Shown: piece by piece, positions 52,061-60,707 of the stretch
How positions within the stretch are numbered: position 1 is the first letter of the stretch
How the letters are laid out: each line of letters opens with the position of its first letter
Notes under the pieces: generated by a model
Told to the model about the DNA's origin: nothing
The model's database searches: none
What the model saw: the letters and a program-made list of their open reading frames with translations, nothing else
Made by a program: the position numbers and the translations under genes
Origin: Octopus vulgaris
Taxonomy: Eukaryota
Assembly (NCBI GenBank): GCA_951406725.2
Contig: OX597824.1
Location: 83,328,001 to 83,392,000, forward strand
DNA: 64,000 nucleotides
Direction: 5' to 3'

Positions 52061-52146
52061 ATAACGACACGTGTTTCGTGGCTATATTTAACAAATGATT
52101 ATAGTAGTAGAGAAATCAGTTTGATATAAATATAGTCACTCATCAT
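52061..52146 (-). ncRNA. Hammerhead motif truncated at its 5' end
   Basis: Minus strand: (A)TGATGA-GTGACTATATTTA...TAAATATAGCCAC (12 of 13 paired)-GAAAC-ACGT-GTC. C3 and the 5' strand of stem I are lost at the junction with a TA-rich tract. Confidence 0.65.
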
Positions 52147-53604
52147 AAATATATATGTATATGTGGAGGCACAATGGCCCAGTGGTTAGGGCAGCGGACT
52201 CACGGTTGTAGGATCACGGTTTCAATTCCCAGACCGGGCGAAAACACCTAAAGCTCCACGAGGCTCCAGCAGGGGGTGGTGGTGATCCCTGCTGTCCTCT
52301 TTCGCCACAACTTTCTCTCACTCTTTCTTCTGTTGGCCTGCTTGCTTAGCCAGCGGGGTGGCGTCATTTGAAGGCTAAAACAATGTGAAGCACATTGTGA
52401 CCAGCGATGTGTAGCAACATCAGATAGCCTGGTTGGTCACAGTGATATATATATATATATATATATATATATATATTGCACCAGATTGGAGTCTGGTGCA
52501 GCCATCTGGTTCGCCAGACCTCAGTCAAATCGTCCAACCCATGCTAGCATGGAAAGCGGACGTTAAACGATGATAATGATATATATGTGTGTGTGTGTGT
52601 GTATGTGTGTGTATTTATAGATAGATAGATAGATAGATAGATAGATAGATAGATAGATAGATAGATAGATAGATAGATAGATAGATAGATACAGATACAG
52701 ATCTCCATGTGTTTGTGTCTGTAAGTATGTGTACAAAGATAGATATAGCGATAGATATATATGTGTGTGTTTAAATATGCATCCATATTGCATTGCATCT
52801 GGAATCCTTTATTCTGAAGGTTAGTGGGAATATATATATATATATATATCAATATTTAGATATGTACTATTACACAAGAAGGCTACTATTACAGCAGTAG
52901 ACTTCATGTACTTTTAAAGCAGCACAATGTTGTAGAAGTGGACATTATGTCTGATAGAATACTGTCTGCTGTTGATGTCACCGTTACGGTGCACTATCAG
53001 CAGTAATTATAACAATGATGATGAAAACTTATCCAGACATACATATATGCATATATAAATATATATATATATATATACTCTTTTACTCTTTTATTTGTTT
53101 CAGTCATTTGACTGCGGCCATGCTGGAGCACCGCCTTTAGTCGAGCAAATCGACCCCCCCAGGACTTATTCTTTGGAAGCCTAGTACTTATTCTATCGGT
53201 CTCTTTTGCCGAACCGCTAAGTGACGGGGACGTAAACACACCGGCATCTGTTGTCAAGCAATGCTAGGGGGACAAACACAGACACACAGACATACACACA
53301 CACATATATATACATATATACGACAGGCTTCTTTCAGTTTCCGTCTACCAAATCCACTCACAAGGCATTGGTCGGTCCGGGGCTATAACAGAAGACACTT
53401 GCCCAAGATGCCACGCAGTGGGACTGAACCCGGAACCATGTGGTTGGTAAGCAAGCTACTTACCACACAGCCACTCCTGCACCTATATATATATATATTT
53501 TATATTATATATATATACATATATATATATATATTATATGTATATATATTTTATATATATATATATTATATATATATATTTTATAAATATATATATATAT
53601 ATAT

Positions 53605-54250
53605 ATCATCATCATCATCATCATCATTTAGCGTCCGTTTTCCATGCTAGCATGGGTTGGACGGTTCAACTGGGGTCTGTGAAGCCAGAAGGTTGCATCA
53701 GGCCCAGTCTGATCTGGCAGTGTTTCTACGGCTGGATGCCCTTCCAAACGCCAACCACTCCGCGAGTGTAGTGGGTGCTTTTTACGTGCCACCTGCACAG
53801 GAGCCAGACGGAGCTGGCAAACGGCACGAACGGATGGTGCACAGGCGAGGCTGGCAACAGGCACGAACGGATGGTGCTTTTACGTGCCACCGGCACCGGG
53901 GCCAGGCGAGGCTGGCAACAGACACGAACGGATGGTGCTTTTACGTGCCACCGGCACGGATCCCAGTCAGGGCGGTGCTGGCAATGGCCACGAACGGATG
54001 GTGCTTTTTACGTGCCACCGGCACGGGGACCAGGCTAGACTGGCAACGGCCATGAATGGATGGTGCTTTTTACGTGTCACCGGCACAGAGGCCAGTCGGA
54101 TGGTGCTTTACGTGGGCGGAGCTGGCAACGGCCACGATCGGATGGTTCACTTACTTGTCACCGGCACTGGTATCACAGCCGCAATTTCCATTGATGTTGA
54201 TCGACTTTGATTTTGGTTCTGCTTTCTGATATCTGATTTGATTTGGTTTG
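53605..54250 (-). mobile_element. SINE-like family C with a (GAT)n tail and an internal ~60-bp variable tandem unit
   Basis: (CAT)n-TTTAGCGTCCG...CTGGATGCCCTTCC, then repeated GGATGGTGCTTTTACGTGCCACCGGCAC. Other copies near 2979, 5278, 5740, 20692, 30580, 36480, 47488, 49674, 50821, 51648, 52477 and 60185. Confidence 0.88.
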
Positions 54251-54267
54251 ATATGCATATTCAATTT

Positions 54268-55625
54268 TTTCTTTTTTATTTGTTTCAGTCATTTGACTGT
54301 GGCCATGCTGGAGCACTGCCTTTAGTCAAACAAATCAACCCCAGAACTTATTCTTTGCAAGCAATGGTGGGGAGACAAAGACAGATACACACACACACAC
54401 ACATATAATGGGCTTCTTTCAGTTTCCATCTACCAAATCCGCTCACAAGGCTTTGGTCAGCCTGAAGCTATAGCAGGAGACACTTGCCCAAGGTGACATG
54501 CAGTGGGACTGAACCCAGAACCATGTGGTTGGGAAGCAGGCTTTTTACCACACTGCCACTCTTGTGCCTATATATATATATATATATATATATATATATA
54601 TATATATTATATGTGCGTATACATATTCATTTTTTCTTTTTATTTGTTTCAGTCATTTGACTGTGTCCATGCTGGAGCACCACCTTTAGTTAAACAAATC
54701 GACCGCAGAACTTATTCTTTGTAAGCAATGGCAGGGGAACAAACACAGATACACAAACATACATACACCCACACATACACACACACACACACACACACAC
54801 ACACATACATATATATATATATGTATGTATGTGTGTGTGTGTGTGTGTGTGTGTGTGTGTGTGTGTGCATGTGTGGGTGTATGTATGTTTGTGTATCTGT
54901 GTTTGTTCCCCCGCCACATGGTTCCCAACCACATGGTTCTGGGTTCAGTCCCACTGTATGGCATATACGACTGGCTTCTTTCAGCTTCTGTCTACCAAAT
55001 CCACTCGCAAGGCTTTTGTCAGCCCGAGACTATAGTAGAACACACTTGCCCAAGATGCCATGCAGTGGGACTGAACCCAGAACCATGTGGTTGGTAAGCA
55101 AGCTACTTACCACACAGCCATGCCTGAGTCTATATATGTATATATCTGTGACTTGTTTCAGTCATTGGACTACAGCCATACTGTAGCACTGCCTTAAAAA
55201 CTTTTTCTTAGTTGAAATAATCAACCCCAGGACTTCTTCTTTGTAAGGCTAGTACTTATTCTACCAGTCTCTTTTGGTGAACCACTAAGGTAGAGGGGAT
55301 GTAAACACATCAACATCGGTTGTCAAGCGATGTTGGGGGGAAAAAACACAGACACACAAACATAAACACATAAATACATACATACACACACATATATACA
55401 TACATACATACGCACATATATACATACATACATACACACACACACACACACATATATACATACATACATACATACATACATACATACATACATACAAATC
55501 CACTCACAAGGCTTTGGTTGGCCTGAGGCTTTAGTAGTAGACATTTGCCCAAGGTGCCATACAGTGGGGTTGAAACTGGAACCATGTGCTTGGGAAGCAA
55601 GCTTCTTACCACACAACCAGGCCTG
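54268..55625 (-). mobile_element. Three family A SINEs; two share an internal deletion and one has an inversion
   Basis: Junction TTCTTTG(C/T)AAGCAATGG at about 54355 and 54717; inverted segment 54726-54917. Confidence 0.85.
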
Positions 55626-58647: not shown

Positions 58648-58724
58648 GTTTACAGCTGTTTCTGTGTACCACGTTGAGGTAAATATGTATTTACCTAGTT
58701 GCAAATGGTAGACATCATCAGAAC
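58648..58724 (-). ncRNA. Minimal hammerhead ribozyme motif with extended stem II
   Basis: Minus strand: GTT-CTGATGA-TGTCTACCA...TGGTACACA (8 of 9 paired; the loop contains an AGGTAAAT/ATTTACCT hairpin)-GAAAC-AGCT-GTA-AAC. Core intact, palindromic stem III, stem I GTT/AAC. Confidence 0.8.
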
Positions 58725-58831
58725 GAAGAAGGCAGAGATAGACAAAGAGGAGAATAGAGGGAAAGATAGAGGGAGAAATCGGAAGAGAAGATGTTCAATA
58801 ATTCGAAAGTTTTACATTTTAGTTGGGTTCA

Positions 58832-59444
58832 AGGATCTTTTCCTTTTGAACGGCAGATGTCAACACAATTTCTAGTTAACTAAACACTTTTAAACTTTGT
58901 ATACTGGTAGAATGTGTTTATAAAACATCATTTTCACATAGTTTTATTGAGAAAATTCTATAGTTTGTAAGATATTTCGTCTGAAAATCCGAGCATTTCG
59001 GCAATTTTAACCAATCAATTACCTCCATTCAACTAAAATCATTTGCTGCGTCTAAAACTGAGACAACATCCTGTAACTAACCCTAAACCTCCCCCTAACC
59101 CTAAATTTTTTTTTCTTAATTGTTTAAATTAATTTAATTCCATTGCTTTAGTTTTTTTTACACGCGTAACAATTAAATTAATTTAACAATTAAGAAAAAA
59201 AATTTAGGGTTAGGGTTAGTTACAGGATGTTGTCTCAGTTTTAAACGCAGCAAATGATTTTAGCTCAAAAGAGAGCATAGGATTGGTTAAAAATTCGAAA
59301 AATTAAACTACATTAAACAAATTACAATTTTCTCAAGAAAGCCAAGAGGAAAAAATGTTTTATTTTGACACATTCTACCAGTATACGAAGTTTTAAAGTG
59401 TTTAGTTAACTAGAAATTGTCTGCCTTCAAAAATAAAAGATCCT
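58832..59444. mobile_element. Fold-back MITE (whole-element palindrome) with internal TTAGGG-type repeats
   Basis: Ends AGGATCTTTT / AAAAGATCCT; long arms (CAATTTCTAGTTAACTAAACACTTTTAAACTT and its near-complement); direct repeat GGTTCA at 58826-31 and 59445-50. A truncated copy lies at 55908-56002. Confidence 0.85.
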
Positions 59445-59602
59445 GGTTCAAAGTTCATTAAATCCATTCTGAGGTAGATGAAGAATAAAGGTTGGTTGAA
59501 ATAAAATCTCGTAGTTAGTTATTAGCATGACTTTATTATTTTTTAAATATATTTATATATCGAGAAATATCTATATTGAGGCAGTGGAAAAGGGAGGTAA
59601 CT

Positions 59603-60707
59603 CATGTTTCTCAACCGGAGTTCCCTGGAACCCTCGGGTTCCACAAAAGGTTCTTAGGGTTTCCACGAGAAAGAGTGAGATAAGCTAATGCTAATTTCAT
59701 GATTGTAATATTACTATCCATGCATATCATACTCTGGTAATTCTAATACAGACATCATCTTGTCTAACCTATTATGTTATCAAAAAATATAACAACCACA
59801 CACACACACACACACACACATACAATATATATATATATATATATATATATATATATATATATGTATATATATATACATACATTCAAAATGTGACCGCGTG
59901 CGTACCGTTGGCGATTTTTTTTCCTCTGTCTTCCCTTCTCTGGATCTTTCCTTCTCCTATGTTTCCGACCAAGAGCTCCGCTCGAAACGTTAGACCCTCC
60001 TTCTTCCCTTCCTTCCTGAGCGTCCAATAATACTATATTTGTTCCACGTCCTCGCGTTGTTGTGTTTTCATGTTTGGATTAACTTTATATATATATATAT
60101 ATATATATATATATATATATATATATATATATATATATATATATATGTGTGTGTGTGTATATATATATATATATATATATATATATCATCATCATCATCA
60201 TCATTTAGCGTCCGTTCTCCATGCTAGCATGGGTTGGACGGTTCAACTGGGGTCTGTGAAGCTGGAAGGCTTCATCAGGCCCAGTCAGATCTGGCAGTGT
60301 TTCTACGGCTGGATGCCCTTCCTAACGCCAACCACTCCGTGAGTGTAGTGGGTGCTTTTTACGTGCCACCCGCACAGACGTGCCACCCGCACACACACAC
60401 ACACACACACATATATATATATATATATATATATATATATATATATATATATATATATATATATATATATATATATATATATATATATATATATATATAT
60501 ATATATATATATATATATATATATATATATATATATATATATATATATATATATATATATAATATATGATATTTACCACATGAACTACGATAAAAAAAAT
60601 ATGAGAAAGATATGGTAAATAATTTTTTTTTTTTTTGTGCAGGGGTTCGTTGAGACAAGTAATTTATTTTAAGGGTTACTCATGGGTAAAAAGGCTGAGA
60701 AACACTG
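59603..60707. mobile_element. hAT-like MITE interrupted by microsatellites, a hammerhead-like repeat and a SINE
   Basis: Left CATGTTTCTCAACC with GGAACCC/GGGTTCC subterminal motifs; right GGCTGAGAAACACTG; no clear TSD. Confidence 0.5.
59961..59995 (+). ncRNA. Ultra-short hammerhead-like motif, second copy
   Basis: GTTT-CCGACCA-A-GAGC-TCC-GCTC-GAAAC-GTT-AGAC. Same family as 56206-56240 with a different core change. Confidence 0.4.

What the first reader, a model, noticed from the sequence alone, without database searches (positions are those of the whole stretch)
52061..59995. Eight hammerhead-ribozyme motifs from about five sequence families within 8 kb
Seen: CTGA(T/A)GA-stem II-GAAAC-NNNN-GT(A/C) motifs at 52061(-), 55694(-), 57720(-), 57836(+), 58264(+) and 58648(-), plus CCGAC(G/C)A variants at 56206(-) and 59961(+). 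Stems differ in sequence but keep pairing (stem I CAC/GTG, GTT/AAC, ATGCAG/CTGCAT), and stem III loops are palindromic or one change away (GATC, AGCT, ACGT, GGTC, AACT). All lie in AT-rich, ORF-less segments beside (TA)n. Established: Penelope-like elements and retrozymes carry minimal type I hammerheads with palindromic stem III that cleave as dimers. Inference: these are several non-autonomous ribozyme-bearing retroelement families accumulated at one locus, possibly undescribed in this lineage.
Basis: partly seen in the sequence, partly recalled or inferred. Interest (0 to 1): 0.85.

Follow-up and report, generated by a model that had tools for sequence, protein, structure and literature searches.

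The report
Spliced Penelope-element leaders carrying hammerheads
The motifs are the known "hammerhead" RNA folds at the ends of Penelope-like jumping genes, mostly damaged, but the mirror-image pair, like hundreds of other copies in this genome, lacks its parent element's intron exactly at the splice signals, so it was likely copied from spliced RNA although these elements are described as keeping their introns.

Summary
The motifs are real: 6 of 8 pass a hammerhead descriptor, and 0 of 300 shuffles reach that count. They are not retrozymes. They are seven insertions from five dispersed Penelope-like element (PLE) families. A, B, C and E lead into Hydra-clade ORFs; D resembles a Neptune-type pLTR. 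Only two copies keep both an intact core and a palindromic stem III. The cluster most likely reflects shared (TA)n targeting. PLE hammerheads are in print (2014, 2021), and this scan met them before on other DNA.

The new point is the inverted pair at 57596-58075. Full-length family A carries an 851-nt GT-AG intron ending 13 nt before the ribozyme core. The window copies, and 69 of the first 100 listed junctions (212 in all), lack it precisely. A sister family shows 312 such junctions (1828-nt intron). Intron-less copies keep at most about 51 or 23 nt of exon 1, stop before the ATG, and occur in several haplotypes. They were likely reverse-transcribed from the spliced sense leader, which bears on the published antisense-template explanation of PLE intron retention. 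No RNA evidence was obtained. Family E showed no such class.

The parts
51900..52145 (-). Family E, 3' end (pLTR) of a Hydra-clade PLE, 5'-truncated inside the hammerhead core (TGATGA at 52145-52140; N17 at 52066; loop ACGT)
55651..55830 (-). Diverged B-type pLTR (76-80% to B); hammerhead C3 55776, N17 55699, stem I ATGCAG/CTGCAT, loop GGTC; outer boundary approximate
56080..56286 (-). Family D copy, loop-less minimal hammerhead (C3 56236, N17 56210), GAAG instead of GAAA
57596..57805 (-). Family A inverted arm without tail; intron-less junction 57794|57793; hammerhead C3 57780, N17 57723, loop CATC
57814..57825 (+). 12-nt remnant of family A exon 1, joined directly to exon 2 (851-nt GT-AG intron of the full-length element absent)
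57826..58075 (+). Family A exon 2: intact hammerhead (C3 57839, N17 57896, loop GATC), then the tail (58024-58075, with about 31 nt deleted), then (TA)n
58217..58482 (+). Family B, 3' end of a Hydra-clade PLE; hammerhead C3 58268, N17 58345, 59-nt stem II, loop AACT (family AATT)
58553..58840 (-). Family C, 3' end of an older Hydra-clade PLE; intact hammerhead C3 58721, N17 58651, loop AGCT
59446..59533 (-). Separate 89-nt fragment of the family C 3' region, no hammerhead
   Evidence: 83% to L192
59882..60085 (+). Family D copy starting at TTCAAAAT; loop-less minimal hammerhead (C3 59965, N17 59991) with G8->C

Best explanation
The eight motifs are hammerhead folds in the end repeats of five Penelope-like retrotransposon families that piled up in (TA)n tracts, and the inverted pair lacks its parent's intron precisely, so it was likely reverse-transcribed from the spliced 5' leader of the element's own mRNA. 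Shown: A, B, C and E lead into Hydra-clade RT/GIY-YIG coding sequence. Full-length A (4967-nt unit) and its sister A' (6310-nt unit) carry a GT-AG intron ending 13 nt before the core. Hundreds of genomic copies lack it exactly, keep only a short piece of exon 1 and end before the ATG. Inferred: an internal promoter starts a short way before the intron (about 45-50 nt in A, about 23 nt in A'). The element's RT-endonuclease nicks (TA)n and starts reverse transcription inside the RNA at one of two sites (about 60 and 150 nt before the ATG in A). On a read-through or 3' pLTR template this gives the usual intron-bearing, 5'-truncated copies. On the spliced mRNA's own leader it gives a 250-340 nt intron-less copy that runs out at the RNA's 5' end. 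Head-to-head pairs, one arm with tail and one without, would come from priming on both nicked strands at the two sites, or from cDNA fold-back. The template must have been uncut at the hammerhead. The ribozymes are predicted to work only as dimers or with protein help, and most copies in this window are probably inert.
For: Descriptor versus shuffles. Loop III palindromic in 13 of 14 multi-locus clusters with a 4-nt loop, a feature the descriptor does not demand. Covariation in 6 B-type copies: 8 of 24 pairs change on both sides, 0 of 500 shuffles reach the score. Links to ORFs: A in L306, B, C, E, D-like. Hydra motifs in the open 840-aa A' frame (against PMC8557442 section 11). Intron-less junctions: A 69 of first 100 listed of 212; A' 312 exact and 39 spliced, 57 unspliced, 4 exon-1 variants among first 100 of 664. 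Neither junction can be shifted or explained by microhomology (sequences). Exon-1 match is 8-46 nt in 54 of 54 spliced A contexts and 6-23 nt in 19 of 19 spliced A' arms. Head-to-head gaps are 9-81 nt for 8 spliced pairs and 1271-9109 nt for 14 unspliced pairs. Spliced copies occur in both A haplotypes (12 of 58 in haplotype 2) and in both A' loop variants. No excess of 5' ends at the cleavage site in A' (6 versus 5 and 6 at neighbouring positions). Internal RT initiation, two start sites, extension of both strands and use of unprocessed RNA are shown in vitro for an anole PLE (PMC11167929). D. virilis Penelope has its intron 46 nt after the start site (PMC2377424).
Against: No transcript, start site or cleavage was observed; the intron is inferred from genomic DNA alone. 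Family E has a similar AG 12 nt before the core, but the one predicted junction had 0 matches and only 21 copies lack that G (303 copies match a shorter core pattern). No splice-type jump was found in held loci of B, C, D or E (34 aligned of 38), though a very short exon could be missed. The spliced share differs strongly between A haplotypes (61 of 76 versus 12 of 58), which an intron-less master copy could also explain. Single-strand folding gives no significant stability for the motifs (z from 0.37 to -1.99). Pfam barely sees the Hydra proteins. Control (a) ignores relatedness. D's own parent was not found.
Confidence: 0.75

Rival explanations
1. Intron loss happened only a few times by retrocopying, and the intron-less leaders then multiplied as SINE-like non-autonomous elements from their own internal promoter, using the parent's protein in trans.
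For: One A haplotype is about 80% intron-less and the other about 21%. Spliced A copies are very uniform (1.1% from column majority, though 30 were top hits of the window copy). An intron-less Penelope promoter is still transcribed in flies (PMC2377424 passages). D copies pile up at one 5' end: 26 of 27 stop within 95 nt of the anchor.
Against: Spliced copies share haplotypes and loop variants with unspliced long copies in both families. Their 5' ends are ragged within exon 1 and no shared outside flank was seen. This rival still needs spliced sense RNA as template at least four times.
Confidence: 0.17
2. The 'intron' is a DNA-level deletion or template jump in a source element, and the short copies are ordinary 5'-truncated PLE debris.
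For: No RNA was seen. PLE copies are generally 5'-truncated and rearranged (PMC8557442), and B, C, D and E show no such junction.
Against: In two families with different exon-1 sequences the breakpoints fall exactly on GTATGT or GTAAGT and on TTTTAG, both 13 nt before C3, without usable microhomology. Deleted copies do not extend far past a short exon 1, whereas undeleted ones reach the ORF.
Confidence: 0.04
3. One reading: independent non-autonomous ribozyme retroelements (retrozymes) gathered at a special locus.
For: 7 insertions in 8 kb against 0.32 expected from 40 evenly placed 10-kb tiles (Poisson 5e-8 per tile). No PLE ORF remnant in the window. A 359-nt tandem array with a canonical hammerhead exists elsewhere in this genome (L318).
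Against: Four families connect to ORFs and one to a Neptune-type pLTR. None is tandem here. The region has 27 (TA)5+ runs in 8 kb against a mean of 13 per 10 kb. Flanks of family loci hold 8.7 foreign hammerheads per 100 kb against 2.3-4.0 in random tiles. The tile was picked after the fact from about 350,000.
Confidence: 0.04

Closest known systems
Hydra-clade Penelope-like elements (Craig et al. 2021, PMC8557442), including Hydra-1_Obim of Octopus bimaculoides
   Same: Single RT plus C-terminal GIY-YIG ORF, RxKW, DKT, CxCx5C linker, CxxC and CxH around E and N, no CCHH, hammerhead in the pLTR, (TA)n targets, inverted 5' copies, tail at one end.
   Different: Units of 4967 and 6310 nt with 2.2-3.5 kb between stop codon and next hammerhead, versus 'generally <3 kb'. 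A 0.85-1.8 kb intron before the hammerhead, which the Hydra section read does not mention. Abundant intron-less leader copies. Motifs of these families had 0 hits in the paper's supplement.
Minimal hammerheads of metazoan PLEs (Cervera and De la Pena 2014, PMC4209133)
   Same: Type I core, short stem I, often an unpaired base at the start of stem II, palindromic or loop-less stem III, mostly solo copies, opposite-strand pairs 100-700 bp apart, many families per genome.
   Different: Stem II is 39-62 nt long in A, B, C and E with a conserved branched hairpin in B-types, versus 7-8 bp. Family D reads CCGACGA. Cleavage untested here.
Penelope of Drosophila virilis (Schostak et al. 2008, PMC2377424; Arkhipova et al. 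2013, PMC3846280)
   Same: Internal promoter with a 5' UTR intron a few dozen bases after the start; intron end next to the hammerhead; head-to-head palindromic junctions.
   Different: Those papers describe introns as retained in genomic copies and propose an antisense or unspliced template. Here about 40-70% of junction-spanning copies of two families lack the intron.
Non-LTR retrozymes (Cervera and De la Pena 2020, PMC7229834; Li et al. 2026 preprint 10.64898/2026.07.22.740005)
   Same: Short, non-coding, hammerhead-bearing, PLE-related.
   Different: Retrozymes are tandem arrays with canonical hammerheads. The window's copies are solo or inverted and are pieces of identifiable PLEs.

Membership tests
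Type I hammerhead (PLE minimal type) | Core C3-U/C-G-A-N-G-A ... GAAA ... UH with stems I, II, III | tested here: met
   Met at family level (28, 25, 3, 22, 14 of 30 loci for A-E pass) and by 6 of 8 window copies under a lenient descriptor; 52061 lacks C3, 59961 has G8C, 56206 has GAAG
Type I hammerhead (PLE minimal type) | Palindromic loop III | tested here: met
   13 of 14 multi-locus clusters and 11 of 14 singletons with a 4-nt loop
Type I hammerhead (PLE minimal type) | Covarying stems | tested here: met
   6 B-type sequences, 8 of 24 pairs compensatory; relatedness not controlled; other families not tested this way
Type I hammerhead (PLE minimal type) | Rfam hammerhead model match | tested here: inconclusive
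   None among 150 listed of 279 matches
Type I hammerhead (PLE minimal type) | Self-cleavage as dimer or with protein | not testable with these tools
   Only self-duplex energies computed
Hydra-clade PLE (A, A', B, C, E) | RT with C-terminal GIY-YIG linked to the hammerhead pLTR | tested here: met
   A: L306, L364; C: L191; E: L311, L312. For B only the endonuclease end was seen
Hydra-clade PLE (A, A', B, C, E) | RWK-like and DKT motifs, CxCx5C linker, CxxC and CxH around E and N, no CCHH | tested here: met
   RIKW, DKT, YRDD, CTCRDKSNC, CYLCSNE, CRH in the A' frame; linker and CxxC read in B, C, E translations; definition
Hydra-clade PLE (A, A', B, C, E) | Insertion into (TA)n; inverted 5' copy; tail at one end | tested here: met
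   (TA)4+ near the 3' end in 27, 28, 17, 27 of 29 loci for A, B, C, E; inverted copy in 23, 12, 4, 4 of 29
Hydra-clade PLE (A, A', B, C, E) | Phylogenetic placement with published Hydra RTs | not tested
   No tree built; published sequences could not be entered
Hydra-clade PLE (A, A', B, C, E) | Generally shorter than 3 kb (typical, not diagnostic) | tested here: not met
   Units 4967 and 6310 nt
PLEs in general | Intron retained in genomic copies | tested here: inconclusive
   Retained in all long copies examined, lost in short leader copies of A and A'
Neptune-clade PLE (D) | pLTR attached to RT with CX2-5CxxC linker and CCHH endonuclease | tested here: inconclusive
   Only a 76-79% identical D-like pLTR was found 3' of such an ORF (L358); D's own parent not found
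Non-LTR retrozyme | Head-to-tail tandem units each with a canonical hammerhead | tested here: not met
   No tandem array of these families in the window

The most novel reading that the evidence does not exclude
Penelope-like elements routinely reverse-transcribe their spliced, sense-strand mRNA: internal initiation in the 5' leader turns out hundreds to thousands of intron-less, hammerhead-bearing mini-copies, often as head-to-head palindromes. Intron retention in full elements then reflects which pLTR is primed, not an antisense template, and this is an unreported route by which PLEs spawn SINE-like ribozyme elements.
Probability: 0.55. Interest if true: 0.75.

Novelty: new variant of a known kind. 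Interest (0 to 1): 0.6.

Why it matters
The hammerheads themselves are known. The intron-less copies bear on an open question about how PLEs, the sister group of telomerase, replicate. Arkhipova et al. 2013 (PMC3846280, Discussion) argued that head-to-head palindromes and intron retention point to an antisense template and left the matter open. Craig et al. 2021 call the meaning of intron retention unknown. Precisely spliced copies can only come from sense RNA, and here they form the same head-to-head palindromes. They also map the likely start site, the splice sites and two priming sites from DNA alone, and A' has several open 838-862 aa frames, so the model can be tested. They may also explain part of the many solo hammerheads and unclassified SINEs in invertebrate repeat catalogues.

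Tried and rejected
Rfam scan: swamped by microsatellite matches, no hammerhead among the 150 rows shown.

Folding stability of single motifs: not different from shuffles for most.

The young 781-aa Neptune family as parent of the window's motifs: none of its 10 loci carries A-E as its pLTR.

D as a spliced leader: a pattern for an exon-1/intron junction gave 17 matches, all ordinary D copies.

E spliced class: 0 matches for the one predicted junction.

Splice-type jumps in B, C, D, E, the Neptune family and A'': none; the 8 jumps printed for B come from an inverted copy in the reference.

5' ends at the cleavage site: no excess in A'; the total with this 3' pattern was not counted.

RNA evidence: no RNA holder listed, and no reads were laid, so expression and splicing in RNA stay open.

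Special-locus reading: rejected in favour of (TA)n targeting, not modelled genome-wide.

Scan index: nothing for this genome or for spliced PLE leaders.

Literature searches for intron-less PLE copies gave no such report. The library lacks most subscription papers, including Arkhipova 2003 and 2006 and Evgen'ev and Arkhipova 2005, and bioRxiv supplements were closed.
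Full report
Observation. All eight places hold hammerhead-type sequence. My lenient type I descriptor accepts six (C3 at 57839+, 57780-, 58268+, 58721-, 59965+, 56236-) and finds nothing else in the 64 kb. Shuffles of the 8 kb average 0.02 hits and 0 of 300 reach six. The 55694 copy fails only at the base of stem II. The 52061 copy is cut off inside the core. 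The 57720/57836 motifs are two arms of one 210-nt inverted repeat. Only 57839 and 58721 keep both an intact core and a perfect stem III palindrome. Rfam showed no hammerhead among the 150 of 279 rows listed.

Families. The genome has 2.8 Gb in 227 contigs. That it is an octopus is my inference from size and recalled repeat style; no call names it. Each of five segments is a dispersed repeat, with 403-2523 first-look candidates. In the 30 best loci of each, 28, 25, 3, 22 and 14 (A-E) pass the descriptor. Over all held DNA there were 349 hits in 49 clusters, 21 of them in two or more loci. Loop III is palindromic in 13 of 14 multi-locus clusters with a 4-nt loop, which the descriptor does not require. 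Six B-type motifs share a long branched stem II, with 8 of 24 pairs changed on both sides; 0 of 500 shuffles reach the covariation score, a control that ignores relatedness.

Parents. Longer copies of C run into degraded RT and GIY-YIG sequence. B and E run into GIY-YIG ends 1.2-2.4 kb upstream, and E also into RT. Family A flanks a whole RT-endonuclease region as direct repeats 4967 nt apart in L306. A sister family, A', has open frames of 838-862 aa in six loci and a 6310-nt unit. Its protein has RIKW, DKT, YRDD, CxCx5C, CxxC-E and N-CxH and no CCHH, which is the Hydra clade as defined in PMC8557442 section 11. That paper's supplement lists Hydra-1_Obim with a hammerhead, but six motifs from the families here had no hit in it. 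For D, only a 76-79% identical pLTR was found, at the 3' end of a Neptune-type element. Most copies end in (TA)n (17-28 of 29 per family), and 23 of 29 A loci have an inverted copy upstream, as described for PLEs.

Is the cluster special? Forty evenly placed 10-kb tiles hold 16 descriptor hits, 7 of them in one tandem array, against 0-3 in ten shuffles. They also hold 16 fragments of the five families. That suggests some tens of thousands of such motifs genome-wide, a rough extrapolation. Seven insertions in 8 kb exceed the 0.32 expected (Poisson 5e-8). However, the tile was chosen after the fact, it has 27 (TA)5+ runs against a mean of 13 per 10 kb, and flanks of family loci are themselves enriched two- to four-fold for foreign hammerheads. 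Shared targeting of (TA)n is the likely cause; it was not modelled.

The unexpected part. In full-length A the sequence before the hammerhead reads exon 1, GTATGT, about 850 nt, TTTTAG, then 13 nt, then the core (851 nt). Both window arms join exon 1 straight to exon 2 (57825|57826 on plus, 57794|57793 on minus). A pattern that accepts both forms has 212 exact matches; of the first 100 listed, 69 are intron-less and 31 keep the intron. In A' the intron is 1828 nt, GTAAGT to TTTTAG, again ending 13 nt before C3. There are 312 exact intron-less junctions. Of the first 100 of 664 matches to a two-form pattern, 39 are intron-less, 57 keep the intron and 4 carry a variant exon-1 end. In both families the base on each side of the junction differs between the two forms, so the breakpoint cannot slide and microhomology does not explain it.

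Anatomy of the intron-less copies. All 54 distinct spliced A contexts match exon 1 for only 8-46 nt; 30 loci were top hits of the window copy and 20 were the first listed spliced places. One more, L362, reaches about 51 nt by eye. Among 16 unspliced contexts the 5' ends scatter through the intron, and four go past the donor, one to the ORF start. All 19 spliced A' arms match exon 1 for 6-23 nt. Head-to-head gaps are 9-81 nt for 8 spliced A' pairs and 1271-9109 nt for 14 unspliced pairs. The 3' ends fall at two places about 150 and 60 nt before the ATG, and pairs usually have one arm of each kind. Spliced copies occur in both A haplotypes (12 of 58 for haplotype 2, against 61 of 76 for haplotype 1 within the first 100). 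They also occur with both A' loop variants, so one deleted master is not enough. 5' ends are not enriched at the cleavage site (6 versus 5 and 6).

Mechanism. Established from papers: D. virilis Penelope has an internal promoter with an intron 46 nt after the start, and most transcripts are spliced (PMC2377424 passages). An anole PLE starts reverse transcription inside its RNA at two sites that bracket the tail, extends both target strands, and uses unprocessed RNA; its hammerhead needs the protein (PMC11167929). Minimal PLE hammerheads cleave weakly and only as dimers in vitro (PMC4209133). Inferred here: priming at the leader of the spliced mRNA yields a short intron-less copy that runs out at the RNA's 5' end, while priming at a downstream pLTR yields the ordinary intron-bearing copy. 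Dual priming or fold-back gives the head-to-head pair. D copies stop at TTCAAAAT in 26 of 27 anchored top loci, the same word found in A's exon 1, and may be leader copies without an intron; some D copies extend further.

Against. No RNA was examined successfully (one search listed no recorded RNA holder). E, B, C and D showed no spliced class. The haplotype imbalance leaves room for SINE-like amplification from intron-less masters. No tree against published Hydra proteins was built.

Comparison and novelty. PLE hammerheads, Hydra elements in octopus, (TA)n targeting and inverted ends are in print. PLEs are described as retaining introns (PMC8557442; PMC3681739). PMC3846280 (Discussion read) explains retention and head-to-head palindromes by an antisense template while leaving an unspliced sense template open. 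Five searches found no report of intron-less PLE leader copies. Arkhipova 2003 and 2006 were not seen, and bioRxiv supplements were closed. What I saw of other papers: PMC4209133 parts 1-2 of 4; the 2026 retrozyme preprint part 1 of 5 and passages; passages of PMC13282606 (no mention of ribozyme, Hydra or intron in its main text), PMC6962438, PMC8969392 and PMC7229834. Verdict: the finding as posed is a new set of members of a known kind; the precisely intron-less leader copies make it a new variant worth a specialist's attention.

Noticed in passing
L181-L190 (e.g. L186:881-2317 and 2239-4581; L184, L188): Very young Neptune-type PLE family with many open 781-aa frames and an overlapping upstream 479-aa frame (two-ORF layout). 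Its pLTR has no descriptor hit but holds a probable U3-A8 hammerhead variant (UUGAUAA ... GAAACAUGUU), read by eye.
   Followed up: partly
L318:2278-4542: Array of 359-nt units with a canonical hammerhead (6-bp stem I, CCGG stem III): five copies on plus, two on minus; looks like a non-LTR retrozyme.
   Followed up: no
L298:4456-8000 and L306:4458-6660: Hydra elements with 2.2-3.5 kb between stop codon and hammerhead, far longer than described; B and E carry internal ~250-nt repeats there.
   Followed up: partly
L299:1910-4429, L301: Asparagine-rich linker of variable length between RT thumb and endonuclease in A', like the N-rich inserts reported for rotifer Penelopes.
   Followed up: no
all held loci: At least 21 distinct hammerhead clusters recur in two or more loci, with stem II lengths from 10 to 77 nt; most were not traced to a parent.
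   Followed up: partly
L358 (minus strand, about 2500-7450 in element sense): GC-rich Neptune-type PLE with a 3-kb (CA)-rich 3' region ending in a D-like pLTR.
   Followed up: partly
window 59042-59254: Long imperfect inverted repeat with TTAGGG-like words, flanked by a repeat also seen at 55909-55993 and 58833-58917; probably a MITE-like DNA transposon.
   Followed up: no
window 13319-14152 (-) and 15467-15856 (-): ORF remnants that read like non-LTR retrotransposon (CR1/L2-like and R2/R4-like) C-terminal parts; labels from recall, not searched.
   Followed up: no
window 53081-55668, 51647-51859, 53607-54150, 60184-60396: Several copies of abundant SINE-like repeats interleaved with the PLE ends, including a 61-nt tandem stretch at 53842-54095.
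   Followed up: no
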